Assembly (NCBI GenBank): GCA_037444125.1
Contig: JBBINA010000002.1
Location: forward strand, 6,272-70,271
DNA length: 64,000 bases
Direction of reading: 5' to 3'
Source of the DNA: a bacterium
GTDB lineage: Bacteria > Patescibacteriota > Minisyncoccia > JBBINA01
Position numbers and translations under genes: made by a program
Shown: piece by piece, positions 4,520 through 60,160 of the stretch
How positions within the stretch are numbered: the stretch's first letter is position 1
How the letters are laid out: the number at the start of each line of letters is the position of its first letter
The notes under the pieces: generated by a model
Told to the model about the DNA's origin: nothing
Databases searched by the model: none
Seen by the model: the letters and a program-made list of their open reading frames with translations, nothing else

Positions 4520-7604
<3,085 letters not shown>

Positions 7605-7647
7605 CCTTTTATAGACTAAATCAATTTTTTAAAAAAAATAATCAAAA

Positions 7648-7764
7648 GCCCCTTGGTAACAATACTGAAGAGGAAACGCTCCTTCTCATCCCGAACAGGA
7701 AAGCTAAGCTCTTCAAGGCCGATGATACTCGTTTAACGGGGAAAGTAGGTAATTGCCAAGGGGC
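7648..7764 (+). rRNA. rrf: 5S ribosomal RNA
   Basis: Terminal helix gccccttggtaa...ttgccaaggggc and an internal ccgaacagg...gatgatactcg pattern typical of 5S. Followed by a T-run. Confidence 0.85.
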
Positions 7765-7770
7765 TTTTTG

Positions 7771-9516
7771 TTATTTATCCGGACCAACACCATAATAATA
7801 AAAAAGGTATTCATATATCTCTCGTAAAGCTGGCACTACTGTTTCTTCGGCAAAACGAGCATTTTTAGGTTTATCCAATCGTATAAAAATAAGAAATTTA
7901 GGATCCTGATAAGGGGCAAATGATACAACGCTATGAATAAAATCTTCAGAGTAACCCTTTTTATCCTTTAAAGGTATTTGTGCTGTGCCAGTTTTAGCTC
8001 CTATGTTGTAACCGGCTATTTTTGTTCTCCGTGCTGTGCCATTTTCCACTGTTTCAATCATCAAATCTTTAATCAAATTCCTTGAATAATCATCTAAAAC
8101 CATTCTTAAAACCTGTGGCTTAGCTTCATAAATAACTTTATCGCCTATAAGTATTTTTTTTAAAAAATACGGCTTCAAAAGTTTACCTCCGTTAATTAAA
8201 CTCGAAGCCGCTGTCATAAATCTTATAGGCGTCACACTTACACCTTGCCCGAATGAAGAAACAAATTTATCAATTTCGCGATTAGAATAAACATTAATAA
8301 ATGAACCCTTAGCTTCATAAGGAATATCTATGCCCGTTAACTCAGACAAACCAAAATTCTCTAAACCCTTAATATATTCTTCATCAGATAATTTTTCAAC
8401 GATATAAACAACACCTGTATTAATAGACTTAATTAGGGCTTCCTTAAGTGGTATGTGGCCATACACCTTCTCCGCAGCATTTTTAATGATATAACTGCCT
8501 GATTTAACAAATCCTTTATCAACATACCATTCATCAGGAGTTATTTTTTTAAAAAAATATCCCAAAGCGAAAGTAAAAATTTTAAATATTGAACCCGGTT
8601 CAAAAGTATTTGAGATTAATGGATTTAAAAATAGTCTATAATCGCTTACTTCGTAATAACGATTTGGGTCAAATGAAGGCTGAGTTGATAAAGCAAGAAT
8701 AGCACCGCTATTAGGATCCATAATGGCAATAATGCCCAGTTCTGCTTTAAATTTCTTCATATAATTAGCCAATATCTCGTCGGTCTTAAAATTTAAATTC
8801 GGTTCAATAGTCAAAATTAATTTAATTTCCTCATTAATTAATGGCTTATTGACGCCGAACAAACGCAACGCTCTATTCACAACATCATTACTACCATTAC
8901 TACCGTCAAGATTGCCTATGTTGCCTTTTAAATAATCATCGTAAAATTGCTCTATGCCATATATACCTTCCTTTTCCTTACCTCTAAAACCATAATAACC
9001 AAGCAGTTGAGCTAGTTTTTCTCCAAGAGGATAATAGCGGTCATAGTAAGTAGTTAAGTATAAACCTTTAAGCTTAGCTTCTTTTATTTTAGTTATAATA
9101 GGATCGTCATTTTCTAATTTTGGTAATAAATTAACAAAATATGTATCTTTTTTTTCAACTTTATCTCTAACTTTATCTATTAATGCCGCGGCTTCATTAT
9201 TATCTTTATTCTTAGCTTCATAATACGAAAATATAATCTGCTGAATCTTATTAAGCTCATCTTCCTGAATTAAATGCGGATTAAGTGCAACATTGTAATA
9301 CAATTTATTTATAGCTACAGGATATAATGACTGATTATTTTTGTCCTCAAGGTATATCTCGCTTCTTTTATCTACTCCCCTAACTTCCCTATTAACCGCA
9401 GCTTTTGCTGGCTCCTGTTTGTTATATAAAACAACGGCAAAATAAAAAACTCGCCATAATATGGCAAGCCCAAGCAAAACTACTATAAATTGAAGAAACC
9501 CTATTTTTCTAGTCAT
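7771..9516 (-). CDS. ftsI: penicillin-binding protein 2 / FtsI-type transpeptidase
   Basis: N-terminal TM anchor. SxxK (GSIFK) and KTG (KTGTA) motifs are present. Position in the dcw cluster after ftsL. Confidence 0.85.
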   Translation of the reverse strand: MTRKIGFLQFIVVLLGLAILWRVFYFAVVLYNKQEPAKAAVNREVRGVDKRSEIYLEDKNNQSLYPVAINKLYYNVALNPHLIQEDELNKIQQIIFSYYEAKNKDNNEAAALIDKVRDKVEKKDTYFVNLLPKLENDDPIITKIKEAKLKGLYLTTYYDRYYPLGEKLAQLLGYYGFRGKEKEGIYGIEQFYDDYLKGNIGNLDGSNGSNDVVNRALRLFGVNKPLINEEIKLILTIEPNLNFKTDEILANYMKKFKAELGIIAIMDPNSGAILALSTQPSFDPNRYYEVSDYRLFLNPLISNTFEPGSIFKIFTFALGYFFKKITPDEWYVDKGFVKSGSYIIKNAAEKVYGHIPLKEALIKSINTGVVYIVEKLSDEEYIKGLENFGLSELTGIDIPYEAKGSFINVYSNREIDKFVSSFGQGVSVTPIRFMTAASSLINGGKLLKPYFLKKILIGDKVIYEAKPQVLRMVLDDYSRNLIKDLMIETVENGTARRTKIAGYNIGAKTGTAQIPLKDKKGYSEDFIHSVVSFAPYQDPKFLIFIRLDKPKNARFAEETVVPALREIYEYLFYYYGVGPDK

Positions 9517-17192: not shown

Positions 17193-18617
17193 CTAACCAT
17201 TTTTTAAACTCTCATAAATTAAATTATCAATTTCTTCTCGCAATTTTTTGATTTGTTCTTTGTATTGATTACTTTTTTCTTCCCGTTGCTGTATTTCTAA
17301 AACAATTTTTTGTTGAGTTTTTTTATCAATTGCCGGAATAGGGAGTTTTCTAATAGACCAGTTTGTAATTTCCTTTTGGCTTTTACCAGTTGAAAAAGCC
17401 CAGAAGAAATCTGAACCAAAAGAAGATTGTAAATAGTATTTTAGAAAAAGGGCATCATCTAAATTATTGAACTCTATAACCGCAAGGTGGTGAGACGGAA
17501 TAAATATTCGTTCATCATTGGTGTCTTTATTAAAAATAATACATTTTCCAATTGTACCAGAGCGGGTCAAGATTAAATTATTCTCATTTATTGCAATGTT
17601 TTTATATTGTTCTCCTATAACATCTTGTAAGAAAATTGGTTCTTCTAAATTCAATTCGTTTGAGGAAATATTATTGACTCTTAAATATACAAAATTTGTA
17701 TCATAAGAAGAATAATATTTCTTTGGGATATACTCTCCACTTCTAATTTTTTTAACATATTTAGTAAAAGGTATGTAATTTCCTTTTAAATTTTCTTTTA
17801 CAAATATAGGCAATTCATCCTCAATAAATCTACAAAGGTAAGTTCTAATACTTAACCAGTTTGATTTAGATATATTTTTAAAATTATTTTTCAAATTGTA
17901 TTCTTCATCTCTTTTTAGTTTTGGTCTTGTTGAATATCCATTCTTAACAAAAACATCATCAATGATATCTTGAATAGATTCAATTTTTTTCTTAGTAGAT
18001 CGAATTTTGTTTTCTATTTCTTCTATTTTTTTAACTATTGTTATTTGCTTTTGATAATTGATAAATGGAACTTTCATTGCAAGAAAATCTGGTATGTGTA
18101 TTCGTGGATGAGTTTTCCCTGATGTTAAAAGTTCTAAATCACTTCTAAAACTTTTATGAAGAAGCAAATACATTAGAAATTTGATGTCCCAACTTCTGCT
18201 TTTTAATCTATAACCAATTAGTTCTGTAGTTCCTATAATTTTTTTTGCTTTATCATTTAAAAAGCAGTGGCCTTTTTCAGGGGTGAGTTTTGAATATACA
18301 ATATCAGCATCATTGAAAAAGGTTTTGTCAGATCCTATCTCTGCAACCACAATCTCATTTTTTATAGCACCAAATCCAGGTTCAATGTCATCTAAATCGG
18401 CTAAAATCATTTCTTCTTCTAATTCACCCTTTTTTATTGTTGTAGTATTAGCAAGGTCTAAAATCTTACCTAACGGCATACCTGTTTTTCTGCTCTTTTT
18501 TAATAATTCAGTAATATTATTTTTTTCATCTTTAAAATATCTGTACTTAGAATCTAGACGTAATTGTTTTTGAAGTCCTATTTTAAAAAAGTTTGTACTA
18601 AAAATTATCTGTTCCAT
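17193..18617 (-). CDS. hsdS: restriction-modification specificity subunit (HsdS-like, two target-recognition domains)
   Basis: 474 aa. Conserved central and C-terminal coiled-coil repeats are typical of HsdS. Overlaps the MTase gene by 13 nt. Confidence 0.75.
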   Translation of the reverse strand: MEQIIFSTNFFKIGLQKQLRLDSKYRYFKDEKNNITELLKKSRKTGMPLGKILDLANTTTIKKGELEEEMILADLDDIEPGFGAIKNEIVVAEIGSDKTFFNDADIVYSKLTPEKGHCFLNDKAKKIIGTTELIGYRLKSRSWDIKFLMYLLLHKSFRSDLELLTSGKTHPRIHIPDFLAMKVPFINYQKQITIVKKIEEIENKIRSTKKKIESIQDIIDDVFVKNGYSTRPKLKRDEEYNLKNNFKNISKSNWLSIRTYLCRFIEDELPIFVKENLKGNYIPFTKYVKKIRSGEYIPKKYYSSYDTNFVYLRVNNISSNELNLEEPIFLQDVIGEQYKNIAINENNLILTRSGTIGKCIIFNKDTNDERIFIPSHHLAVIEFNNLDDALFLKYYLQSSFGSDFFWAFSTGKSQKEITNWSIRKLPIPAIDKKTQQKIVLEIQQREEKSNQYKEQIKKLREEIDNLIYESLKNG

Positions 18618-20971
18618 TTTACATATTTTCTTAAATAATCCAAAATAGTTTTTGGATTATTAGTATCGATATAAATTATTCTGTCTGAATACTCTCCTTC
18701 CGAATTAAAAAGTTGATTAGGACGTTTTTCTTCTTTGCGAACCCCTCGCTTATAGCCAATTTCTTCAGCGTGAGCCATAAATATAGGGTAGTCCTGCTCT
18801 TTAGATACATTTTTAAACACCCACCATTCAAGATCGGCTTCTTGTATATTTTCTTCATATTTCTCTTTAAGTTCTTTAAATGATAGTTTTTTATCTTCAG
18901 GGTCAAAATTTTCTTCTCCTAAAAGTTGAATTAAAAGTTCTATAAATTTCTTTTTATTTTCTTCCTTCTCTGATTTTAATAATTTTTTTATTTCAGAAAT
19001 CAGTTCTTTGTATTCATCTTCGTACTTTGACCATAACTTATTCCACTCTTCTACCTCTTCTTTGGTTTTCTTTTGCGCGAAAAGCAAGCTCGTTTTTGTT
19101 TGAGTATAAGGTGCGAAAGCTAAATGAGGTAATGAAACAACCGCTTTAATCCAAAAATATTTATAAAGGAAGAGCCGGATATCTCTATTGCTGGTTGTAT
19201 CAAAAACGCTTTCGGGGAGAACAACGCCCATTCGCCCGCCTTCTCTCAATAATTGATACCACCTTTCTATAAAAAGATTTTCTGTATCAACTTCCAATTC
19301 TTTGTTATTTTTAAGAGTCTTTGCTATTTTTTCTCCTCTCAAATAAAGCCTTGGAAACTGCTTAGCTGTATCTCTGTCTACGGTCACACTAAATGGTGGA
19401 TTAGAAACTACTACATCAAATTGTTCGTTTACAGGAAATGAATAAACTTTGCTTTCATGTTTTTCTGCTAATTTTCTGTGATAATTACTAAAATCAATTA
19501 AACCGTCGGCAGGCTCAATATTTGCGGAACCATCGCCATGGCCAACCATATTTACTTTTGAAGCCATCGCCAAATCAGAATTTATTTCAATACCATAAAT
19601 ATATTCGTCTGCCCAGGCATTTTTGCGCAATCTTTGAAAATTTTTGTCTAAAAATTCTTGTGTTGCGTAATCTTTTTTGATTTTGCCCTCCTTTTCTGCT
19701 TCCTCCTTAACTTTATCAATTAGTTTCATCGCGTGAATTAAAAATGTCCCAGAACCGCATGCAGGATCAATAATATAAGGCAATCTCGTTTCATTGTTTA
19801 TTAAGTTTAAAGTTAATTCATCTAATCTTAGAGCATACAGGATAAAATCAACTATATTCGGATGTGTAAGATATTGTCCTTTTGTTTGTTTTAGTTCTTG
19901 CCTAACAATTTTCTCAAAGAAATCACCGAGAACATCATACTTATTTTGTAAGAAAGATATGTCTTGCAGCACCTCAACAACATATTTTACTTTTGGGGCA
20001 TCAAAAATTATGTCTTTTACCTTCTCTAAATCTTCATCTTTATAATTTAATAATCGTTTTAATGCACAATCTTTATATTTTCCAGTTTTAGAATCTTTCT
20101 CGCCTTTATAAAGCTTGTTAATTCTTTTATAGGTTTTTTCTGGGGGTTCTTGGTCTAATCCTTCAAAGAAAATTTGAAATTGGTAAGGTTCGCCTTCTGG
20201 CGTTGTTTTCTCGTCGTAAATTTTTGCCAAAAACATCCCGATTAAATTAAAGAAAAGCTCGTTTTGATACTTACCCCCACCCCATAAAATATTGTGGAGT
20301 TCTCTTGCAATCCTATCTAATTCTTCCTTTTTTACATCTAATCTTAAATCTTTTTCTCCTCCTTTTATAAATGCCGGCGGCTTATCTTTAATTTCATAAT
20401 TTTTTGGAATATATCTTAAATTAGGACGACCAGCAGCCTCCCAATCATCAAAAGATTTAAATTTTGTGTAATCTATTGTCTCGTATTTTTCTTGTAATTT
20501 GCCATCATCGTCATACCAACGAGTGTAATAAATAAGAAATTTTAAAGTTCCTTTACCCTTATCTTCTGTAGCAGCAGGTTCAAAAAGTTGGGTTTTAATT
20601 GAAGATTCAAAATATCTTTCGTAATCATCTCGGGGCTTTAACTCAAAAAGCATAAATGGATTATGGTTCTCATTATAAACAACGATATCCATTTTAATAT
20701 CTGTTCTTTTGTGAGGATGCCCGATCTTTCGATATTTCTCTAATTCAATTTTATCTGGTCTGTAGTTATACTTTTCTATTAAATCTACATACAGTTCTGC
20801 TCTAACTTGCTCCTCCGGATCTAAAAAATTATCGGTATACCCTTGGGCTAAATAAGTAATTTTGAAACCATCGTGACTAATCAAAATATAACCCTTTTCT
20901 TCCCCGAGCTTAACTAAGAAAGATTTTTCACCAGTAATAATTTCTTCTTTTTGTGGTTTGTATTGTGCCAT
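18605..20971 (-). CDS. N6-adenine DNA methyltransferase (gamma class) with N-terminal PD-(D/E)xK nuclease-like domain
   Basis: Motif I DPACGSGTFL and motif IV NPPF are present. The N-terminus has a D-x13-ELK pattern (MDIVVYNENHNPFMLFELKP). 788 aa is larger than a typical HsdM. Confidence 0.7.
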   Translation of the reverse strand: MAQYKPQKEEIITGEKSFLVKLGEEKGYILISHDGFKITYLAQGYTDNFLDPEEQVRAELYVDLIEKYNYRPDKIELEKYRKIGHPHKRTDIKMDIVVYNENHNPFMLFELKPRDDYERYFESSIKTQLFEPAATEDKGKGTLKFLIYYTRWYDDDGKLQEKYETIDYTKFKSFDDWEAAGRPNLRYIPKNYEIKDKPPAFIKGGEKDLRLDVKKEELDRIARELHNILWGGGKYQNELFFNLIGMFLAKIYDEKTTPEGEPYQFQIFFEGLDQEPPEKTYKRINKLYKGEKDSKTGKYKDCALKRLLNYKDEDLEKVKDIIFDAPKVKYVVEVLQDISFLQNKYDVLGDFFEKIVRQELKQTKGQYLTHPNIVDFILYALRLDELTLNLINNETRLPYIIDPACGSGTFLIHAMKLIDKVKEEAEKEGKIKKDYATQEFLDKNFQRLRKNAWADEYIYGIEINSDLAMASKVNMVGHGDGSANIEPADGLIDFSNYHRKLAEKHESKVYSFPVNEQFDVVVSNPPFSVTVDRDTAKQFPRLYLRGEKIAKTLKNNKELEVDTENLFIERWYQLLREGGRMGVVLPESVFDTTSNRDIRLFLYKYFWIKAVVSLPHLAFAPYTQTKTSLLFAQKKTKEEVEEWNKLWSKYEDEYKELISEIKKLLKSEKEENKKKFIELLIQLLGEENFDPEDKKLSFKELKEKYEENIQEADLEWWVFKNVSKEQDYPIFMAHAEEIGYKRGVRKEEKRPNQLFNSEGEYSDRIIYIDTNNPKTILDYLRKYVKWNR

Positions 20972-21135
20972 ATTTATTTCACTTATTTTTTTTATTAATT
21001 CTATTGAATTCTTTTTTCAACCGCTTAATCTCGGCTAAAAGTTTTTCTTTTGATTGATTTTGTATCTTTTTTATAGCCATAACTTTTTACTTCAATAAAA
21101 AATCATCACAATCTAAAGAACTTTAGCTAATCTTG

Positions 21136-21207
21136 TGGACCCGAGGGGACTCGAACCCCTGACCTCCCGCGTGCAAGACGGGCGTTCTACCGCTGAACTA
21201 CAGGCCC
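21136..21207 (-). tRNA. tRNA-Ala (anticodon UGC)
   Basis: Cloverleaf folded by hand: acceptor GGGCCUG with a G3:U70 pair, anticodon loop CUUGCAC, T-arm GGTTCGAGTCC. CCA is not encoded. Confidence 0.9.
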
Positions 21208-23138
21208 TTTTCTAAATTTAATCGGTTAAGCTCTCGTCTTGCCTCAATATTATATTTATCTATCTTTAAAGATTCAATTAAATATTTCCGCGCCTCATTT
21301 AACTCGCCATTATTTCTATGTATTAACGCCAGAATATAATAAGCCTGCGACAGCTTTTCTATTAATTGAATGCTGGCGCTGCGAGCAACAATCATATCGC
21401 TAGGATAATAATCTAAAATACTCTTAATTACCCTTACGGCATCGTTTATCCTGTTATTTAGATAATAAAAAAACCCTAAATTGATATAATACTCGGGATT
21501 ATTATATTTATCAAGGGAAACGGCTTTTAAAAAATTATTCTCGGCGGAAACTAAATCTTTCTTTTCCATTAAAATTAATCCATTCAAGCTGTAAACCCTT
21601 GCATTATAAATATTATACCTCAAAGACCGAGAAACGAAATTCTCGGCTAATTCTAATCTTATGGAATCAGATGTCTGACGATAAATATTGTAATTAAGAA
21701 GGGCAAGCTGATAATTGTTTTCTTCATTATCAAAAAACCGAAGCGAATCGACAAAACTTCTTTCTGCTTGCTTAAACTGTTTAGTTTCAACATAAAATTT
21801 GCCCAACTCGAAGTAATGATGAAACCAATAACTTTTAAAAGCGCTTTTACCAAACCAAAAAATAATACCTAAACATATCAAAGTCGCTAAAATTAATTTT
21901 TTACCTGAAAACTTCAGGATATCCTTTTTAAATAAGTGCGTCAATAAACCTATATAAACCCCAAAAATAAAGAATAGACCAATGTAATGCCAAGAAACCT
22001 CAAACAACATATTCAATAAAAAAGAAAGGAAACCTAGAAAAACAAAATAAAAAAATTCGGAACACTTTTCCTGTCTAAGTTTTTTCGCTATTTTAAAAAC
22101 AAAAAGAACTGTAAATATTAAAAAAATTATACCTAGCAAACCAAGGTCAGATAGCATTTCAATAATTATATTATGCGGGTAAATAGAATATCCAACCGGG
22201 GAAACCTGATAAAATGGCAAAATTATTTTGTAAGTTCCCGGTCCTGTACCTTTTAAAATATTATCTTGAAAAATACGCCAACCTTCCACGATAAACTCAA
22301 CTCGCCCGCGCAAAGACAAGGTATAATTAAATTTAAAGCGGCCCAAAATATTCTCATACAAATTTGTGTACTGAAGAGAAATTAAAAAAAGAAAAATAAA
22401 TACAAAAAACATAAATAAAGGCAAAAGGCTTGGCATTTTTTTACGGCGCTTTAAAAAATAAGAAACTCGATTATTTATAAGTCTATCTTTAAACAAAAGC
22501 GCAAAAATCACGCTAGCTAAAAAAAAGCTAAGCAAACCCCCTCGTGATAATGTTAAAAGAAAAGCGCTAATAAAAATAACTAACTGAAAATTCCAAAAAA
22601 TATTATTTTTGGCTTTTTGTTTTAAATAATAAGAGATTGGCAGTATTAACAACAAAAACGAAGCCAAAACATTAGGATTATTAAAAACTGAACTAAAATG
22701 ATCTTTATCAATAAACAAATAATAATAATATCCAATAACCACCACCACTAAACCTAAGAAAACAAAATATTTAAGTATATTAATGATAGTTTTACTAGTA
22801 AGGTCAAAAGAGTGTATGATAAAAACCACCGCAAGAAAGACGCTGATGTAAAAAAAACTTCGTAGTGATTCAAACCTATTCACAGAAAATTCAACTGCCA
22901 TCAAATAAACAGCAACAATAATCGCTAAAATAATTAAAAATGTCTTATTGTAAGTTAACTTCTTGGAAATAACCAAATTTCTTAAAAACAAAAATGCTAA
23001 TAACGCAGCTAAAATAAGACTAAAACTTTCAGTAAAATAATAAGCCGCTTGCCGCGCAAAAATTACTGTAATACCAATAAGCAGGCAAACAAAAAAAACA
23101 CTAAGATTTTTATAAATGAATTTATCTCTTAACTCCAT
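21198..23138 (-). CDS. O-antigen ligase-like polytopic membrane protein with C-terminal TPR repeats
   Basis: About 12 TM segments followed by several TPR-like repeats. The last codons overlap the tRNA-Ala 5-prime end by 10 nt. Confidence 0.5.
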   Translation of the reverse strand: MELRDKFIYKNLSVFFVCLLIGITVIFARQAAYYFTESFSLILAALLAFLFLRNLVISKKLTYNKTFLIILAIIVAVYLMAVEFSVNRFESLRSFFYISVFLAVVFIIHSFDLTSKTIINILKYFVFLGLVVVVIGYYYYLFIDKDHFSSVFNNPNVLASFLLLILPISYYLKQKAKNNIFWNFQLVIFISAFLLTLSRGGLLSFFLASVIFALLFKDRLINNRVSYFLKRRKKMPSLLPLFMFFVFIFLFLISLQYTNLYENILGRFKFNYTLSLRGRVEFIVEGWRIFQDNILKGTGPGTYKIILPFYQVSPVGYSIYPHNIIIEMLSDLGLLGIIFLIFTVLFVFKIAKKLRQEKCSEFFYFVFLGFLSFLLNMLFEVSWHYIGLFFIFGVYIGLLTHLFKKDILKFSGKKLILATLICLGIIFWFGKSAFKSYWFHHYFELGKFYVETKQFKQAERSFVDSLRFFDNEENNYQLALLNYNIYRQTSDSIRLELAENFVSRSLRYNIYNARVYSLNGLILMEKKDLVSAENNFLKAVSLDKYNNPEYYINLGFFYYLNNRINDAVRVIKSILDYYPSDMIVARSASIQLIEKLSQAYYILALIHRNNGELNEARKYLIESLKIDKYNIEARRELNRLNLEKGL

Positions 23139-23347: not shown

Positions 23348-24848
23348 GAAAGGAGGTGATCCATCGCCAGCTTCCGCTAGCGATGCCTTGTTACGACTTA
23401 TCCCCTATCACCGGGCCCACCATCATCCCGCAGAAAACGGTCTTTCCGGTGTTCCCAGCTCTCTTGGATTGACGGGCGGTGAGTACAAAGCTCGAGAACG
23501 TATTCACCGCGGCATTCTGATCCGCGATTACTAGCGATTCCAGCTTCATGAGGTCGAGTTGCAGACCTCAATCCGAACTAAGGAATGTTTTTTGGGATTA
23601 GCTCCGCCTCACGACTTCGCAGCCCTTTGTACATTCCATTGTATCGCCTGTGCAGCCCAGGTCATAAGGGCCATGCGGATTTGACGTCATCCCCTCCTTC
23701 CTCCTGGTTAACCCAGGCAGTCTCCCTAGACATCTAAAACTAAGGATGGGGGTTGCGCTCGTTACCCGACTTAACGGAACACCTCAAGGCACGAGCTGAC
23801 GACAACCATGCAACACCTCGCCATGATGTCCTTGCGGAAATCTAACTTTCGTCAGATTATCACCATGACATTCCAGACCTGGTAAGGTTTATCGGTTACC
23901 GTCGAATTAAGCCAGACGATCCACCGCTTGTGCGAGCTCCCGTCTATTCCTTTGAGTTTCGGCCTTGCGGCTGTACTACCCAGGCGGGAGACTTAACGCG
24001 TTAGCTTCGCCGCTGAAAGGGTCGACACTTCCAACGACTAGTCTCCATGGTTTAGGGCGTGGAATACAAGGGTATCTAATCCTTTTTTATGCCCACGCTT
24101 TCGTCCATGACTGTCAGGTGGCACCTAGTGAGTTGTTTTCACCTTTGGCGTTCCCCTGGGTATCAACGGATTTCACCCCTACTCCCAGAGTTCCACTCAC
24201 CCCTTTGCCCCTCTAGAAATACCGTTTGAGAAGCAGCTTAAAACTAAAGTCTTAAGATTTAACTCCTCACAAGTATTTCCAGCTGCGGACGCTTTACGCC
24301 CAGTAAATCCGGACAACGCTTGAGGTCTCTGTATTACCGCTGCTGCTGGCACAGAGTTAGCAACCTCTTATTCCTGAAGTACCGTCATTCCGAACTTGCG
24401 TTCGGAATTCTTCCCTCAGAAAAGCAGTTTACACCCCGAAGGGCTTCTTCCTGCACGCGGCGTCACTCGGTCACCCTTTCGGGCATTGCCGAATATTCTC
24501 GACTGCTGCGACCCGTAGGCCTCCGGGCAGTGTCTCAGTCCCGGTGTTGGGGAACAGCCTCTCAGCCCCCCTACCCGTCATAGGCTTGGTGAGCCGTTAC
24601 CTCACCAACTACCTGATAGGCCGCAGGCCCCTCTTGAAGCGGATTGCTCCTTTAATGAAAACCGGAATTAACCGATTCTCATACCATCTTGTATTAGCCC
24701 CAGTTTCCCGGGGTTATTCAAAACTTCAAGGTAGGTACCTACGTGTTACTAACCCGTTCGCCACTATGCGCGCTCAACACGCGCATCGTACGACTTGCAT
24801 GCCTTATCCACGCCGCCAGCGTTCGTCCTGAGCCAGGATCAAACTCTC
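23348..24848 (-). rRNA. rrs: 16S ribosomal RNA
   Basis: Reverse complement begins agagtttgatcctggctcag and ends ggatcacctcctttc. Universal blocks are present (gtgccagcagccgcggtaatac-like, 1492r region). Length is about 1501 nt. Confidence 0.95.
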
Positions 24849-24930
24849 TTATAAAAGTAGCATAAATATTCGTCTGTGGAACTTAAAATAAGTATAAACT
24901 AGCCAAATTTCAAAAGAACTTTTATTTAAA

Positions 24931-24965: not shown

Positions 24966-26810
24966 TTAGGAACTCAAAAGACCTTCAAACATCTTAATAA
25001 GAATTTCAGCGGCTTCTTTTTCAATGGCGTTTTTCTTTTGGTATTTTTTGATGAGATTAATGGAGCTTTTTATTTGTTGGTTTATTATGGATTTAACGGC
25101 ACGAGTAAAAGTTTGGGTGGAGCGCAAAATTTCAATAGAACGAACCTTAGCCAAAAGCTGGTTTTTCAAAATTTGGCCATCCGCATTATGCCTAATTCTA
25201 CCAAGTTCATAAAATCTATTGACCGCAAATAGAATATTTTCGGGAGTTATTTTCTGCTCAACTTCACTTAAGGGTTCATTAGAATTATTAGTATTAAGAT
25301 TAAATGAATAGATTAATTTCTCTGTTTCTGATTCAAAACCGCTTATTTCCTTAAAGATATTAAGATTATCGCCAAGTAGCTGTATACCTAAATGAAACTC
25401 GCCTTCAGCTAAACCTTCAAGTTCAATTTGATATTTGCCTTGAATGGGGTTAGGTATAAAAATCATTTTGGGACCTAAAGGATCGGGCGTCTTATTGAAT
25501 TCAGCGTAAGGAATATCTATTTGATTTTCGGAAACAATATTGCCATTAGGATCCCTGATTTTGATGGTAACAGGCGAGCCAACCATCACAATCATTTCCT
25601 CGGCAAATTCCGGATATTGTGAAGAAATTTCAGCTAAATTAAGTTCTAAAATAGAGAATATATCAGAAATAGCATCATAGGGTAAATTACCATGACTGGA
25701 GGATTTAATAATCTCGCGATAATTTAATGGCAAGCCGCCAAACTGGGCATAGGCTTTTTTAATTAAATAATTAAAAAATCTTGCCAAGAGATTTTCTGAT
25801 CTGATAATTCCAAAACTACCTCCACCACTAAAACCAAAATTAAACAAAGCACTGAAAAGAAGGACTCGATTATCACCTAGCTCATCGTTTCTTTGAGGGT
25901 CTAATGGTTCGGGTTTGCCATCTATCCATAAAGGCGCTTCATTTTCATTGCGGGCTATTGTTGGGATATAATTTACTGTATAAAAACCTTCGCCGGCAAT
26001 TACTATTATTTCGCCTACTCTTTCGAATAATTTACTGATGTTTTCTTGGGTGTTTAAAGCCTGTAAAAAAATATTTTGCTCCTGCATCAAATCAAAAGGT
26101 TTAATTTCGCCGGTGGCTTTATCCTGAATATAATCATATACGGGCAACATTTCTCTAATTGAAGGGACATCCTGATGGATAACTTGGTATGAAGTACGAG
26201 CATCTTTATTGAGCCAGTTGAGGTATCTAATGTAATTTTCTATTATAAATTGCTGCCCCTTATCCCAATTCTTTGGCACATAACCGCCCTCCCAAAGAGT
26301 ATAAAGGTCTGATGAGCCGTAATTAGGAGTTCCCAACATTATGAACTTATCAATATCATTTTCATAGTGATTGGAAATAATATACGCGCGCGTCACGAGT
26401 CCCCCCATTGAATGGGCAATGATATTGACCTTGTTTTTACCAGAAACTTGTTTAGCTTTAGTAATAGTCTCTTTAAGATAGTTTAATGCTGAATTAAAAT
26501 TTTCTTTTCGCCAGTCATAAAAAGCAATAAAGAAATCCTTATTTTTTTCATAGCCAGCGTTTTCTAATGATTTAACCAAGCCATCATATACATGTGTAAA
26601 GGGCGTAAAGTTCCAGGAATCGCCAAAGATTTTGCCAACCATTACATCCCAGTTCCAGGAACCACCAATACCAGGAACAATAACTATGGGGTAAAATGGC
26701 AGTTCCTGAGCTAAAAGAAAAAATCTTATTACGACCAAACAAAAAAAGAGGATTAACCCTCCAAAAAAAATTCTTTTAGTATTCATCATCGTCATATTTA
26801 ATTTTAGCAA
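24966..26810 (-). CDS. secreted/membrane-anchored alpha/beta-hydrolase lipase (Bacillus LipA-like class 2 lipase family)
   Basis: N-terminal TM. The VPGIGGSW oxyanion region and AHSMGG nucleophile elbow are like B. subtilis LipA. Long C-terminal extension. Confidence 0.55.
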   Translation of the reverse strand: MLKLNMTMMNTKRIFFGGLILFFCLVVIRFFLLAQELPFYPIVIVPGIGGSWNWDVMVGKIFGDSWNFTPFTHVYDGLVKSLENAGYEKNKDFFIAFYDWRKENFNSALNYLKETITKAKQVSGKNKVNIIAHSMGGLVTRAYIISNHYENDIDKFIMLGTPNYGSSDLYTLWEGGYVPKNWDKGQQFIIENYIRYLNWLNKDARTSYQVIHQDVPSIREMLPVYDYIQDKATGEIKPFDLMQEQNIFLQALNTQENISKLFERVGEIIVIAGEGFYTVNYIPTIARNENEAPLWIDGKPEPLDPQRNDELGDNRVLLFSALFNFGFSGGGSFGIIRSENLLARFFNYLIKKAYAQFGGLPLNYREIIKSSSHGNLPYDAISDIFSILELNLAEISSQYPEFAEEMIVMVGSPVTIKIRDPNGNIVSENQIDIPYAEFNKTPDPLGPKMIFIPNPIQGKYQIELEGLAEGEFHLGIQLLGDNLNIFKEISGFESETEKLIYSFNLNTNNSNEPLSEVEQKITPENILFAVNRFYELGRIRHNADGQILKNQLLAKVRSIEILRSTQTFTRAVKSIINQQIKSSINLIKKYQKKNAIEKEAAEILIKMFEGLLSS

Positions 26811-26945
26811 ATATTACTTAATATAATTTACAAAGTTTCTGTAAGTTTTCCAAGTCCCCAGGCTACTAAGTATCCCCAAGTCACAAGAAGAATGATGAAC
26901 AAAATTATAGAAATTTATAGAAATTATAGAGAGAAGAAAAAGATA

Positions 26946-27266
26946 TTAGAAATCTTTTTTTGTAAATCTATTATACTTTATTTTTGCAATTAGAAATGGC
27001 GATATAGTTAAAAGTATACTTATAAATAGCTCAGTATATATCATTCCATCATCAAATATTCCAACGTAAGTATAATTATTAACCCGATCAACCAACTCTA
27101 CATAAATAAACCAAATTAACGCTCCTACAGCTCCGGACAATATATAACCCACCACAATATGCCTCCATAAAACAGGCTTAAACCTACGCCAAATAATCAA
27201 GAACGGCAAAATAACCAAAAAAACAGAAACCGTTGTAAATAGATACTGAAAAACCTTGGGCGACAA
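26946..27266 (-). CDS. small membrane protein, paralog A (TTG start)
   Basis: 106 aa with 3 predicted TM segments. The first 38 codons and the upstream region are identical to paralog B. Confidence 0.5.
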   Translation of the reverse strand: MSPKVFQYLFTTVSVFLVILPFLIIWRRFKPVLWRHIVVGYILSGAVGALIWFIYVELVDRVNNYTYVGIFDDGMIYTELFISILLTISPFLIAKIKYNRFTKKDF

Positions 27267-27424
27267 GTAAATAAATTAAATATAACCTTTAACTTGAATT
27301 TATAATTACTCAAATAATAATCAACAATCAATAATCACTCAATAATTACTCTTTTACAACAACTATACAGTACCAAAACTATTTTGCAAGGGAAAATATT
27401 TTTGGAGGCCGGACCTCCAAAAAT
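27152..27424. repeat. 273-bp direct repeat, copy 1 (promoter, leader and first 38 codons of the small membrane protein gene)
   Basis: Base-for-base identical to 27795-28067 by manual comparison. Contains a TTGCAA-N16-TATAGT promoter and a 9-bp-stem hairpin ttttggagg-ccgga-cctccaaaa on the minus strand. Confidence 0.85.
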
Positions 27425-27489
27425 CAGAAAAAAAGAGGATTAACCCTACCAGAGAAATTATTTTATTTTTATAAAAAGTCTTTATTATA

Positions 27490-27909
27490 TTATAAATCTC
27501 CCGTCAATTTACCCAAACCCCAAGCAAACAAATATCCCCAAATAATAGCTGATAAAACAAAAACAAAAATTGAAATAAATAACGAGATAAAAAATCTTTT
27601 TTTTGTGAATTTTCCATAAATTAGTTTTGTTACAAAAAATGAAGAAATAATAAACAAAAAATTACTCCATATATAGGCATAGCTTACCCCCTCTAAAAGT
27701 GCGTAGGAATAATCAATATCTCTAATTTTGTTATCTAGAAATACAAATATATACCAAATAGTAACTCCACAAAAGATCGTTATCCCACATCCTGCCACAA
27801 TATGCCTCCATAAAACAGGCTTAAACCTACGCCAAATAATCAAGAACGGCAAAATAACCAAAAAAACAGAAACCGTTGTAAATAGATACTGAAAAACCTT
27901 GGGCGACAA
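27490..27909 (-). CDS. small membrane protein, paralog B (TTG start)
   Basis: 139 aa. N-terminus is identical to paralog A. The C-terminus is diverged but similar in pattern (IW.I.V, KFTKK). Confidence 0.5.
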   Translation of the reverse strand: MSPKVFQYLFTTVSVFLVILPFLIIWRRFKPVLWRHIVAGCGITIFCGVTIWYIFVFLDNKIRDIDYSYALLEGVSYAYIWSNFLFIISSFFVTKLIYGKFTKKRFFISLFISIFVFVLSAIIWGYLFAWGLGKLTGDL

Positions 27910-28067
27910 GTAAATAAATTAAATATAACCTTTAACTTGAATTTATAATTACTCAAATAATAATCAACAATCAATAATCACTCAATAATTACTCTTTTAC
28001 AACAACTATACAGTACCAAAACTATTTTGCAAGGGAAAATATTTTTGGAGGCCGGACCTCCAAAAAT
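27795..28067. repeat. 273-bp direct repeat, copy 2
   Basis: Identical to 27152-27424. Confidence 0.85.
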
Positions 28068-28070
28068 TAA

Positions 28071-29363
28071 CTACAAATACCATAAGGGATTAACTGTTCC
28101 TTCAGGATTATATCCTGGCCATCTCTTATCTGTAATGTAAAATTCTGTATAAACTGAAAAGTGTAAATGTGGCGCAGTAGAATTTCCGCTTGAACCTTGA
28201 TAACCGACTACACTATCAACAGTAACCATTGAGCCAATCTCTAATGAGCTTGGTTGCATTAGGTGAGCGTATAAAGTAACCATTTTATTGGCATGTTCTA
28301 TTGCCACCCAGTTACCCCAACCGCCTTGACAACCGTAATCTTTAAAATTAGGGCAAGCAGTAGAATTCTTGCCAATAACTTTTCCTTCGGCAGCAGCATA
28401 TACTTTTGTCCCAAAATCACCTGCTATATCAATACCGTTATGAATAGCGCCTCCATAATAACCTTTTCGCGAAAATTCTGTTGAACCATATCTTTGAGTC
28501 AAAACAGCTCCATCAATTGGATATCTAAATAATTTTGTCCCCTGTGGTGGCCGTATATTAGTAACAGAATAAAATTTAAAATTTCTTAATCTTTTGGTCT
28601 CTTCTTCATAACGCACAATCTCGTTCATAATTTTTATCCGTTCCTTCTCTACTTCGCTTAATAGACTTTGATATCTTTTCTCTTCACCTTTAGTTTGCTG
28701 CAGAATAATAGCTTGCTGTTGTTTTTGCAAAGACAAGGCAAATTTTTTGCTTTCTTTTTCTGATTTAAAATTACTAAGCTCATATTTAGCTGTCTCAAGG
28801 GCAAGTTTTTCGCTTCTTAAATTGTCTTTTAATGATTTAAGATATCGAGCATTAAGAATTAAAGCGCTGTTGATTTTAGTAAATTGGTCTATTTTATTTG
28901 TAAATTCAGAAAGGCTTATTGAAGAAAATATAAAATAGATCAGTGGTTTTTTAAAATCATTAAGCTGATTTAATATTTTCTCGATTAGAAAAGTAGTATT
29001 TTTTATTTTTTTAGCAGTATCTTCGATAAATATATTTTTACGTTCTATCTCAAGCGCTTTTTGCTCAATATTTAACTCCAGAATTTCAATATCGTTCTCA
29101 AGCTTATTAATATTATAATTAAGATATTCTATCTCGTTTTGTAGGTTTTTTGCTTGATATTTCTTTTCTAAAATTTTCTCGCTTAACTCCTTCCGTCTAA
29201 CCTCATATCCCTGAAGTTTTTGATTCAACTCGCCAATTTTATTTTGAATCTCCTCTAAAGTCAAACCAAAACAAACAATCGGCGCCATAAAAAAAAGGAC
29301 TAAAACATAAAAAAAAGTCTTTTTAACCTTGCTTATTTGAAATTCAAATATATTACAAATCAC
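28071..29363 (-). CDS. M23 family metallopeptidase with N-terminal coiled coil (EnvC/LytM-like)
   Basis: HNGIDIAG, VTLYAHL and TAPHLHFSVY motifs of the LytM domain. Long coiled-coil N-terminal half. Confidence 0.8.
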   Translation of the reverse strand: MICNIFEFQISKVKKTFFYVLVLFFMAPIVCFGLTLEEIQNKIGELNQKLQGYEVRRKELSEKILEKKYQAKNLQNEIEYLNYNINKLENDIEILELNIEQKALEIERKNIFIEDTAKKIKNTTFLIEKILNQLNDFKKPLIYFIFSSISLSEFTNKIDQFTKINSALILNARYLKSLKDNLRSEKLALETAKYELSNFKSEKESKKFALSLQKQQQAIILQQTKGEEKRYQSLLSEVEKERIKIMNEIVRYEEETKRLRNFKFYSVTNIRPPQGTKLFRYPIDGAVLTQRYGSTEFSRKGYYGGAIHNGIDIAGDFGTKVYAAAEGKVIGKNSTACPNFKDYGCQGGWGNWVAIEHANKMVTLYAHLMQPSSLEIGSMVTVDSVVGYQGSSGNSTAPHLHFSVYTEFYITDKRWPGYNPEGTVNPLWYL

Positions 29364-57973: not shown

Positions 57974-58054
57974 TCAAAATCGCGGTCCACAGGCAATATT
58001 ACATTCTTAATATTATAATTTTAAAAAAAAGCATGTCAATAAGTAAATTTAAAC

Positions 58055-58094
58055 AATATTTTAAAACTAATTTAGAATATAATTAAGGTATCAA
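58055..58094. repeat. 40-bp direct repeat (copy 1) aatattttaaaactaatttagaatataattaaggtatcaaa
   Basis: Matches 60118-60160 with one indel. Corresponds to the 3-prime coding end of the GT4 gene at 60132. Confidence 0.6.
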
Positions 58095-58098
58095 ATTT

Positions 58099-60117: not shown

Positions 60118-60160
60118 AGAATATTTTAAAACTAATTTAGAATATAATTTAAGGTATCAA
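60118..60160. repeat. 40-bp direct repeat (copy 2), overlapping the stop of the GT4 gene
   Basis: See copy 1. Confidence 0.6.

What the first reader, a model, noticed from the sequence alone, without database searches (positions are those of the whole stretch)
26946..28067. Perfect 273-bp tandem-spaced duplication gives two small membrane-protein genes an identical promoter/leader/N-terminus but diverged C-termini
Positions 27152-27424 and 27795-28067 are identical base-for-base. Each copy carries a hairpin (ttttggagg-ccgga-cctccaaaa), a TTGCAA-N16-TATAGT promoter, an A/T-rich leader with short internal repeats, a TTG start and the first 38 codons (LSPKVFQYLFTTVSVFLVILPFLIIWRRFKPVLWRHIV). Downstream of the repeat the two ORFs are clearly homologous but only about 35-40% identical. 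A perfectly conserved 5-prime cassette beside strongly diverged 3-prime bodies is unusual. It suggests recent gene conversion or a recombination-based switching mechanism that exchanges variable C-terminal cassettes onto a constant expression/N-terminal module. The alternative is a very recent segmental duplication. The repeat would also support deletion or inversion between copies.
Basis: seen in the sequence. Interest (0 to 1): 0.7.

Follow-up and report, generated by a model that had tools for sequence, protein, structure and literature searches.

The report
Tandem gene copies with homogenised starts
A small membrane-protein gene that normally sits in front of a lipase gene is duplicated in tandem in this candidate-phyla-radiation-type bacterium, and the first 273 bases of the two otherwise strongly diverged copies are identical, most likely through recent gene conversion; this is an ordinary evolutionary process, not a switching device.

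Summary
Positions 27152-27424 and 27795-28067 are identical over 273 bp, and this is the only long exact repeat in the window. The genes lie on the minus strand. Each repeat carries a terminator-like hairpin, a promoter-like site, a leader of about 90-110 nt, a TTG start and 38 codons.

The repeat is the 5' part of a larger tandem duplication of about 643-690 bp. The rest of the unit is 51-63% identical in DNA and 30% in protein over the body. It ends in a relic of the 5' end of the downstream lipase gene.

The gene belongs to a rare, unannotated family of four-helix membrane proteins. A member lies next to an LCAT/PGAP1-like lipase gene in all six independent loci examined. Three relatives have one copy.

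The upstream copy (139 aa) is intact. The lipase-proximal copy is cut to 106 aa by two frameshifts in slippage-prone tracts.

The best explanation is an older tandem duplication followed by recent gene conversion of the 5' segment. An unrelated lineage (L008) shows the same patchwork of perfect runs between tandem copies.

Cassette switching is not supported. Both copies have their own promoter and start, the repeats are direct, and I found no recombinase, silent cassette or further copy. An independent k=31 assembly branches exactly at the repeat edge, which argues against an artefact.

The parts
27795..28067 (-). Repeat copy 2 (upstream unit): terminator-like hairpin, promoter-like site, leader, TTG start and codons 1-38 of the intact gene
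   Evidence: 273/273 identical to 27152-27424
27152..27424 (-). Repeat copy 1 (downstream unit): the same module in front of the truncated gene and, further on, the lipase gene
28041..28067 (-). Hairpin ATTTTTGGAGGTCCGGCCTCCAAAAAT followed by ATTTTCCC. It lies 4 nt after the stop of the M23 peptidase gene and is the likely intrinsic terminator of that gene. Its 5' edge is also the edge of the duplicated unit.
   Evidence: terminator scan; fold of the identical downstream copy of this hairpin (27385-27440) -15.1 kcal/mol, z -3.5; ORF map
27398..27424 (-). The same hairpin, 65 nt after the stop of the intact copy. It is the likely terminator of that gene and separates the two transcription units.
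28005..28032 (-). Promoter-like TTGCAA-N16-TATAGT (upstream unit)
   Evidence: 9/12; consensus match only. A similar TTGTAA-N16-TACAAT lies upstream of the orthologue in L002.
27362..27389 (-). Promoter-like TTGCAA-N16-TATAGT (downstream unit). By inference it also drives the lipase gene.
   Evidence: in relatives the small gene and the lipase gene are 7-24 nt apart
27490..27909 (-). Intact copy, 139 aa: four-helix membrane protein of an unannotated family
   Evidence: ORF; 17 homologues found by exhaustive HMMER, aligned end to end; AlphaFold2 pLDDT 91 with four helices
26946..27266 (-). Truncated copy, 106 aa as it stands. It retains helices 1-3 and the ISPF..KIKY motif and ends at a premature stop.
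26828..26945 (-). Out-of-frame remainder of the truncated copy. Frame +2 reads KKRFLISFSSL.., then frame +1 reads ..ISIILFIILLVTWGYLVAWGLGKLTETL*. The first frameshift site is the T7 run at 26955-26961 (T8 in the intact copy, 27597-27604). The second lies at the 9-10-nt tandem repeat 26902-26930.
   Evidence: three-frame translation; tblastn hit of P0002 at 26831-26884, 83%; run lengths; TRF
27428..27470 (-). Relic of the 5' end of the lipase gene at the tail of the upstream unit. It has no start codon. It shows that the original duplication ran from the hairpin into the lipase gene.
   Evidence: 36/43 identical to 26741-26783, including a perfect 20-nt run
24966..26795 (-). LCAT/PGAP1-like alpha/beta-hydrolase (lipase-like, AHSMGG motif, N-terminal signal/anchor). 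It is the conserved neighbour of the small gene.
   Evidence: Pfam; distant match to B. subtilis lipase A and LPLA2; 72% identical to the L002 neighbour
28071..29363 (-). Coiled-coil M23 peptidase gene upstream. It is not part of the duplicated unit, but its terminator hairpin is.
   Evidence: Pfam; NCBIfam

Best explanation
This is an older tandem duplication, with one recent gene-conversion tract laid over it.

The ancestral state, still seen in relatives, was a single small four-helix membrane-protein gene transcribed together with the LCAT/PGAP1-like lipase gene just downstream. In this lineage a segment running from the M23 gene's terminator hairpin to about 45 nt into the lipase gene was duplicated in tandem. 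The two units then diverged. The body diverged fastest, as it also does between orthologues. The lipase-proximal copy picked up two frameshifts in slippage-prone tracts.

Recently, homologous recombination between the two units copied one 5' segment onto the other. The tract reaches from the unit edge to codon 38, at most 273 bp. It left two identical terminator-promoter-leader-first-helix modules.

Consequences, all inferred:
- Both copies are expressed from identical signals.
- The downstream module also serves as the promoter of the lipase gene.
- The hairpin between the units makes them separate transcripts.
- The 273-bp direct repeat makes the 643-bp unit prone to deletion or amplification. 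Deletion would remove the only intact copy and should be selected against.

What is shown: the repeat, the mosaic identity, the family, the conserved pairing with the lipase gene, and the frameshifts. What is inferred: the order and timing of events, the conversion mechanism, promoter and terminator activity, and the direction of conversion (unknown).
For: 1. Segment-wise incongruence. For codons 1-38 the paralogs are 100% identical to each other and 58% to the L002 orthologue. For codons 39-104 they are 30% identical to each other and 39-42% to L002. For the C-terminus the values are 63% and 60-63%. Without the anomaly the N-terminus would be expected near 55-60%.
2. The boundary is abrupt: 100% falls to 30-57% within one 15-nt step.
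3. Homology of the whole unit, including the lipase-gene relic, shows a full-unit duplication and not a copied promoter.
4. The 5' edge of the repeat coincides with the edge of the duplicated unit. Only the codon-38 edge is a true recombination breakpoint.
5. Three relatives have one copy directly upstream of the lipase gene (L002, L004, L005), so the duplication is lineage-specific.
6. The same process appears in an independent lineage. In L008 the gene pair is tandemly duplicated, and perfect runs of 73 (cut by the contig end), 41, 36 and 54 nt sit in a 64% background, each with P between 1e-5 and 1e-12. One lipase copy there is a pseudogene.
7. The repeat is real in the reads. A Logan contig of run SRR11582170 is identical to the window and stops exactly 30 nt (k-1 for k=31) into the repeat, as expected at a branching node.
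8. The mismatch spectrum in the diverged part is unbiased, so there is no adenine-specific mutagenesis.
Against: - Gene conversion needs pre-existing similarity, and the surviving flanks are only about 50-60% identical. The 5' segment must therefore have been better conserved before the event, or repeatedly homogenised.
- A tract that reaches the very last base of homology is unusual for double-strand-break repair. The hairpin end may already have been identical.
- The lipase-gene relic (36/43, with a perfect 20-nt run) is much better preserved than the body. It is closer to the window's own lipase gene than to the orthologue (36 versus 29 of 43). One duplication plus clock-like decay plus one tract does not explain this. 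It needs a second, older patch, selection on the relic, or an imported body (note 4).
- No strain-level or read-level data were available. The neighbouring proteins are singletons at 90% identity, and the collection scans found no close relative.
Confidence: 0.6

Rival explanations
1. A divergent allele was captured. The upstream body and its lipase-gene relic came from another lineage or strain and were integrated next to the resident gene by recombination anchored in the conserved 5' module. The identical repeat would then be the footprint of that event (a Campbell-like or unequal exchange) and not of later conversion.
For: The two bodies are more diverged from each other (30%) than either is from the L002 orthologue (39-42%), although the lipases are 72% identical. 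The structure is R-X-R, which a single crossover with a circular or sister molecule would produce. Identity is uneven along the unit.
Against: The relic at the tail of the supposedly imported piece matches the window's own lipase gene better than the orthologue's (36 versus 29 of 43). This implies a donor closer than L002, while the body implies a more distant one. Both window copies simply show longer branches than L002 against the outgroup P0001, consistent with acceleration after duplication. A crossover with a diverged donor would leave hybrid, non-identical repeats. No mobile-element genes lie nearby.
Confidence: 0.15
2. Assembly artefact. Either two strain alleles of a single-copy gene were threaded in tandem, or two similar but non-identical 5' segments collapsed to one consensus.
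For: The source is evidently a short-read metagenome assembly. The proteins are known only from one NCBI contig of 80 kb and one Logan run. A 273-bp repeat exceeds usual k-mer sizes, so its resolution depended on read pairs. Bubble-popping can erase a few real differences.
Against: The junction from the relic into the repeat (27425-27427 and flanks) is unique sequence that can exist only if the upstream unit is followed by a second copy of the module. With four distinct edges (M23 to R, relic to R, R to body B, R to body A), the tandem path is the simplest single linear path that uses every edge. A second assembler's contig breaks exactly k-1 nt into the repeat. The relic and the out-of-frame C-terminus are diverged, real homologous sequence and not duplicated text.
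Confidence: 0.07
3. Very recent partial (segmental) duplication of the 273-bp module alone, placed in front of an already existing old paralogue.
For: Perfect identity is what a new duplication gives.
Against: The module sits in exactly the homologous position in both units, in register with homologous bodies and tails. A copy-and-paste that replaces the homologous segment precisely is gene conversion by definition. An insertion would have left the old 5' segment beside it, and none is present.
Confidence: 0.05
4. Programmed variation: a constant expression and N-terminal module used to exchange variable bodies, or phase variation of the lipase-proximal copy through its homopolymer and tandem repeat.
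For: There is a constant 5' part and a variable 3' part. Both frameshifts in the truncated copy lie in slippage-prone tracts, T7/T8 and a 9-10-nt repeat in 3 copies. A similar 5'-identical pattern occurs at the start of L008.
Against: There is no silent cassette, because both copies have a promoter and a start. The repeats are direct, so only deletion or amplification is possible. No recombinase or reverse transcriptase was found among the ORFs of 100 aa or more between about 7.8 and 39 kb that gave Pfam hits. There are only two copies. Two independent frameshifts would have to revert together, and a 7-8-nt run is short for efficient slippage (general knowledge).
Confidence: 0.03

Closest known systems
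Concerted evolution by gene conversion between bacterial paralogues (classic case tufA/tufB, from my own knowledge; survey of prokaryotes in PMC6053082)
   Same: The paralogues are more alike to each other than to orthologues over a delimited tract with sharp edges. The most likely cause is homologous recombination between copies in one genome. PMC6053082 attributes such patterns to recurrent gene conversion and notes tandem pairs among its cases.
   Different: Here only the 5' quarter of the unit is affected (non-coding signals plus 38 codons). The rest is near saturation, one partner is frameshifted, and the genes are small, fast-evolving and of unknown function, unlike conserved housekeeping genes.
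Cassette-based antigenic variation and toxin-tip exchange (Neisseria pilE/pilS, Borrelia vlsE, CDI/Rhs orphan modules; from my own knowledge)
   Same: A constant 5' part lies next to variable 3' parts. A shared homologous segment could anchor recombination.
   Different: Those systems have one expression site plus promoterless silent cassettes, usually many, and show population heterogeneity. Here both copies are complete transcription units, there are only two, and the repeats are direct.
Tandem duplication, amplification and deletion at direct repeats (RecA-dependent and RecA-independent; general knowledge)
   Same: The R-X-R layout with a 273-bp direct repeat and a 643-bp period is the standard substrate for unit loss or gain.
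   Different: The units are not fresh copies. Only the repeat is identical, so the array is old and has been partly re-homogenised.
Lipase genes paired with a small membrane-bound accessory gene (for example the lipase-specific foldase Lif of Pseudomonas and Burkholderia; from my own knowledge, resemblance only)
   Same: A small membrane protein gene is tightly linked to, and probably co-transcribed with, a secreted or anchored lipase-like hydrolase. This holds in six of six independent loci.

Membership tests
Gene conversion / concerted evolution between paralogues | Within a delimited tract, the paralogues are more similar to each other than to orthologues, while the flanking parts show the opposite or normal relation | tested here: met
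   Codons 1-38: 100% between the paralogues versus 58% to L002. Codons 39-104: 30% versus 39-42%.
Gene conversion / concerted evolution between paralogues | Abrupt tract boundary and a perfect run far longer than the background identity allows | tested here: met
   100% falls to 30-57% within 15 nt. A run of 273 has P of about 1e-67 at 56% background.
Gene conversion / concerted evolution between paralogues | Both copies lie in the same genome on one molecule, so they are not alleles of different strains | tested here: inconclusive
   The unique relic-to-repeat junction makes the tandem path the simplest linear one that uses every edge, and a second assembler breaks k-1 nt into the repeat. No reads could be examined.
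Gene conversion / concerted evolution between paralogues | Non-reciprocal transfer with an identifiable donor and recipient | not testable with these tools
   This needs an outgroup strain with the unconverted state. No close strain exists in the collections.
Cassette switching (pilE/pilS-, vlsE- or CDI-orphan-like) | One expression locus plus silent, promoterless or 5'-truncated donor cassettes | tested here: not met
   Both copies have the identical hairpin, promoter-like site, leader and start. tblastn finds no further body-like sequence in the window.
Cassette switching (pilE/pilS-, vlsE- or CDI-orphan-like) | Population heterogeneity at the variable part | not testable with these tools
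   No read data. Only one sample carries this organism.
Site-specific inversion / shufflon systems | Inverted repeats flanking the variable segment and a nearby recombinase gene | tested here: not met
   The repeats are direct. There are no exact inverted 30-mers in the window. No recombinase was found among the ORFs of 100 aa or more between about 7.8 and 39 kb that gave Pfam hits.
Diversity-generating retroelement | Template/variable repeat pair differing almost only at adenines, plus a reverse transcriptase | tested here: not met
   Mismatches are spread over all bases (A 43, T 40, G 31, C 23 in unit 1) and divergence is about 49%. No reverse transcriptase was found among the scanned neighbours.
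Fresh tandem (segmental) duplication | The whole period is identical or near-identical between the units | tested here: not met
   Only 273 bp of the 643-bp period are identical. The remainder is 51-67% identical with indels.
Small four-helix membrane protein family linked to LCAT/PGAP1-like lipases (unnamed) | End-to-end homology with the conserved motifs PF.II..KFKP..WRHI, ISPF.ITKIKY, KRFFISL and AWGLGQIG | tested here: met
   17 hits in 1.84 billion representatives with E down to 6e-29, aligned over residues 3-136. The intact copy has all motifs. The truncated copy has the last two only out of frame.
Small four-helix membrane protein family linked to LCAT/PGAP1-like lipases (unnamed) | Adjacent to an LCAT/PGAP1-like hydrolase gene | tested here: met
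   Window, L002, L004, L005 and L008 (twice) have the lipase gene 7-32 nt downstream. L009 has it 4 nt upstream.

The most novel reading that the evidence does not exclude
The small membrane protein could be a fast-evolving specificity or immunity-like partner of the secreted lipase. Its constant terminator-promoter-first-helix module would be kept identical by frequent conversion and would serve as a portable homology anchor. Divergent bodies from the population would be captured, duplicated or lost at this anchor. That would be a simple two-unit analogue of orphan-module exchange in toxin/immunity loci, in ultra-small candidate-phyla-radiation bacteria. The near-identical 5' stretch at the edge of the duplicated pair in L008, and the bodies being more diverged than orthologues, are compatible with this reading but do not require it.
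Probability: 0.07. Interest if true: 0.6.

Novelty: new member of a known kind. Interest (0 to 1): 0.25.

Why it matters
As an evolutionary event this is a textbook-style example of partial gene conversion between tandem paralogues. It matters mainly for annotation and assembly. The repeat breaks short-read contigs. The lipase-proximal copy should be annotated as frameshifted. The two identical promoters imply separate transcripts.

The by-product is more useful. It defines a previously unannotated, rare family of four-helix membrane proteins that is linked to an LCAT/PGAP1-like lipase gene in every locus examined, at least one of them a Paceibacterota genome. Bacteria of this kind are generally thought to lack lipid synthesis and to depend on host lipids (my own knowledge, not tested here). 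A conserved lipase-plus-membrane-partner pair that duplicates, decays and is re-homogenised is therefore a reasonable candidate for work on membrane lipid acquisition or on self-protection from the lipase.

Tried and rejected
- Word-indexed homology search with the 139-aa protein found nothing. The exhaustive HMMER search was needed to find the family.
- Exact-product look-ups of both small ORFs, of two alternative N-termini and of the lipase protein were all 'not on record'. The second repeat boundary could therefore not be checked in the Logan assembly.
- A genome-contig scan with the lipase protein found nothing. With the family alignment it found one Paceibacterota MAG.
- A metagenome scan for a 26-mer of the module found nothing. 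The family scan returned the same MAG contig. No strain-level comparison was possible, because the neighbouring proteins are singletons at 90% identity.
- An alternative start at the GTG of codon 38, which follows a GGAGG six nt upstream, was considered and rejected. The GGAGG is the conserved W-R codon pair, the GTG is absent in L002, and homologues conserve the first helix.
- A regulatory RNA in the leader was rejected: no Rfam match at E up to 1 and fold z = -0.05.
- A DGR was rejected on the mismatch spectrum.
- An integron attC or dif-like site at the repeat edge was rejected: I saw no core-site match on reading the sequence.
- Pfam gave only a sub-threshold ECF_trnsprt match (20.7 bits against a cut-off of 30.7), which I did not accept.
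Full report
OBSERVATION

The claimed repeat exists exactly as stated. Positions 27152-27424 and 27795-28067 are identical over 273 bp with a spacing of 643 bp, and the bases just outside both ends differ. No 16-mer of the module occurs elsewhere in the 64-kb window on either strand. The only other exact repeat of 30 nt or more is an unrelated 30-mer.

All features read on the minus strand. In the 5'-to-3' direction each copy contains:
- a 27-nt palindromic hairpin, ATTTTTGGAGGTCCGGCCTCCAAAAAT, followed by ATTTTCCC. The scan calls it terminator-like, and it folds at -15.1 kcal/mol, z = -3.5;
- a TTGCAA-N16-TATAGT promoter-like site, 9 of 12 matches. Such matches are no more frequent here than in shuffled sequence;
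- an A/T-rich leader of about 90-110 nt with short tandem repeats and no notable fold (z = -0.05) and no Rfam match;
- a TTG start and 38 codons.

THE REPEAT IS PART OF A LARGER, OLDER DUPLICATION

Aligning 26735-27430 with 27422-28075 on the minus strand shows homology along the whole unit. Identity by segment:
- repeat: 273/273;
- codons 39-104: 51% in DNA;
- C-terminal region: 63%, with a 20-nt indel;
- short 3' spacer: 67%, with a large gap;
- relic of the lipase gene's 5' end: 32/37 to 36/43.

The relic is 27428-27470. It copies the first codons after the start of the downstream lipase-like gene (26741-26783) but lacks the start codon. The original duplication therefore ran from the hairpin just after the M23 peptidase gene (stop at 28071) to about 45 nt into the lipase gene.

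The 5' edge of the perfect repeat coincides with the edge of that unit. Beyond it lie the M23 stop on one side and the relic on the other. Only the edge at codon 38/39 is a real recombination breakpoint. There, identity drops from 100% to 30-57% within one 15-nt step.

THE TWO GENES

The upstream ORF (27490-27909, 139 aa) is intact.

The downstream ORF (26946-27266) stops after 106 codons. Frame +2 then continues with KKRFLISFSSL.., and frame +1 continues with ..ISIILFIILLVTWGYLVAWGLGKLTETL*, ending at 26828. tblastn with a homologue detects this out-of-frame end at 83% identity.

The two frameshifts lie in slippage-prone tracts. One is a T7 run (26955-26961) where the intact copy has T8 (27597-27604). 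The other is a 9-10-nt tandem repeat in about three copies (26902-26930).

The truncated copy still has the family's ISPF..KIKY motif, and its out-of-frame end is hardly decayed. The inactivation therefore looks recent (inference).

THE FAMILY AND ITS CONTEXT

The word-indexed search found nothing. An exhaustive HMMER search of 1.84 billion representatives found 17 homologues, with E down to 6e-29. Most are 139-163 aa and align from residue about 3 to about 136. They share four motifs: PF.II..KFKP..WRHI in and after helix 1, then ISPF.ITKIKY, KRFFISL and AWGLGQIG.

This settles that the 38 shared codons are coding and that the TTG is the start. The position matches the ATG of P0001 and a GTG in L002, where the gene caller had chosen an internal ATG.

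A member sits next to an LCAT/PGAP1-like alpha/beta-hydrolase gene in all six independent loci examined. The lipase gene is 7-32 nt downstream in the window, L002, L004, L005 (a Candidatus Paceibacterota MAG) and L008. It is 4 nt upstream in L009. L002, L004 and L005 have a single copy.

The window looks like a candidate-phyla-radiation genome. It has 33% G+C and unlinked 16S and 23S rRNA genes, and the one named relative (L005) is a Paceibacterota MAG. This is an inference.

WHY GENE CONVERSION

Identities by segment, with the truncated copy's C-terminus reconstructed:

| Segment | Paralogue vs paralogue | Either paralogue vs L002 orthologue |
|---|---|---|
| Codons 1-38 | 100% | 58% |
| Codons 39-104 | 30% | 39-42% |
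| C-terminus | 63% | 60-63% |

The neighbouring lipases of the window and L002 are 72% identical. So the small protein evolves fast everywhere, with the body fastest. Apart from the first 38 codons and their upstream signals, the two copies look like old paralogues.

A perfect run of 273 nt in a 56% background has a probability of about 1e-67. Selection on the promoter, leader or helix 1 cannot remove every neutral difference. A fresh tandem duplication would make the whole 643-bp period identical. The remaining explanation is recombinational homogenisation of a homologous segment.

Independent support comes from L008, a distant relative. There the pair (small gene plus lipase gene) is tandemly duplicated, and one lipase copy is a pseudogene with AHSMGG changed to AHRMGG followed by a stop. 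The two copies show perfect runs of 73 nt (cut by the contig start), 41, 36 and 54 nt in a 64% background, each with P between 1e-5 and 1e-12. Patchy conversion between tandem copies thus recurs at this locus type.

WHAT DOES NOT FIT NEATLY

The relic of the lipase gene's 5' end (36/43, with a perfect 20-nt run, P of about 1e-3) is far better preserved than the body. It is also closer to the window's own lipase gene than to the L002 orthologue (36 versus 29 of 43). One duplication, clock-like decay and one tract do not explain this.

Three additions could explain it: an older second conversion patch, selection on the relic (a weak stem plus T7 just before the strong hairpin), or an imported body. 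I could not decide among them (note 4). The pattern in L008 favours repeated patches.

Conversion between flanks that are now only 50-60% identical also implies that the 5' segment was better conserved before the event.

RIVALS

Import of a divergent allele anchored in the module remains possible (0.15). It gives contradictory donor distances, though: the relic implies a donor closer than L002, and the body implies a more distant one.

An assembly artefact is unlikely (0.07). The relic-to-repeat junction is unique sequence that requires a second module after the upstream unit, so the tandem path is the simplest linear path through the four observed edges. The Logan contig of SRR11582170 is identical to the window and ends exactly 30 nt into the repeat. 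That is k-1 for Logan's k=31, a value I give from my own knowledge. It is the behaviour expected at a true branching node. A consensus may still hide a few differences between the copies.

Programmed switching (0.03) fails its defining tests. There is no silent cassette. The repeats are direct and not inverted. No recombinase or reverse transcriptase was found among the ORFs of 100 aa or more between about 7.8 and 39 kb that gave Pfam hits. The mismatches are not adenine-biased. There are only two copies.

HOW IT WORKS (INFERRED)

Each unit is a self-contained transcription unit in the order terminator, promoter, leader, gene. The hairpin 65 nt after the intact gene ends its transcript. The second module then drives the truncated gene and, as in relatives where the small gene and the lipase gene are 7-24 nt apart, the lipase gene.

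Recombination between the 273-bp direct repeats would delete or amplify the 643-bp unit. Deletion would leave only the frameshifted copy, so selection should hold the array in place if the membrane protein is needed by the lipase.

VERDICT

The phenomenon is a known kind, concerted evolution between tandem paralogues (compare PMC6053082). The gene family and its strict pairing with a lipase gene are new but uncharacterised. Interest is low to moderate.

Noticed in passing
L008:1-3834 (JGI 3300033062, Ga0346718_11115126): In a distant relative the whole pair (small membrane gene plus LCAT-like lipase gene) is tandemly duplicated with a period of about 2.8 kb. The copies form a patchwork of perfect runs (73+, 41, 36, 54 nt) in a 64% background. 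One lipase copy is a pseudogene (AHSMGG changed to AHRMGG followed by a stop). The contig starts inside the longest perfect run, as if the assembler broke at a repeat.
   Followed up: partly
window 26902-26930 and 26955-26961 (compare 27597-27604): Both frameshifts that truncate the lipase-proximal copy lie in slippage-prone tracts: a 9-10-nt unit in about 3 copies, and T7 versus T8. Read-level length variation (phase variation) was not testable.
   Followed up: partly
window 58053-58095 and 60118-60160: A 42-nt intergenic sequence (AATATTTTAAAACTAATTTAGAATATAA(T)TTAAGGTATCAAA) is repeated upstream of two adjacent, unrelated minus-strand genes. One is a 1081-aa protein with a Peptidase_S74 chaperone domain and the other a 625-aa M64-like protein. 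It may be a shared promoter or operator.
   Followed up: partly
window 4528-7761 (+), 23349-24854 (-), 21135-21207 (-): The rRNA genes are unlinked. 23S-5S lies about 15.6 kb from 16S and on the opposite strand. tRNA-Ala(TGC) is separated from 16S by a 646-aa Wzy_C/TPR ORF (21198-23138) whose 3' end overlaps the tRNA by about 10 nt.
   Followed up: no
L005:4816-4902 and 7829-7915: An 87-nt repeat rich in hairpins (90% identical) brackets the small-gene/lipase block of the Paceibacterota MAG. Its GGAGGCTCAGCCTCC hairpin resembles the window's GGAGGTCCGGCCTCC hairpin. This suggests a common terminator-type element in these genomes.
   Followed up: no
P0011 (203 aa): One family member carries an internal duplication of the third-helix segment (..LPLTPFIFSAVRSSRFSK.. 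and ..LPLTPFVYYEFRHQEFTRKG..). This is another sign that the gene is prone to local duplication.
   Followed up: no
window 17193-20971 (-): Type I restriction-modification genes lie about 6 kb from the locus: an N6_Mtase/HsdR_N fusion of 788 aa and an HsdS-like protein of 474 aa. I saw no link to the repeat.
   Followed up: no
window 27798-27812 / 27155-27169 (minus strand TGGAGGCATATTGTG): A GGAGG lies six nt before an in-frame GTG (codon 38), exactly at the 3' end of the repeat. It mimics a strong ribosome-binding site and start, and could mislead gene callers into predicting N-terminally truncated proteins. Neither small ORF is on record in the protein collection with any start that I tried.
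   Followed up: partly
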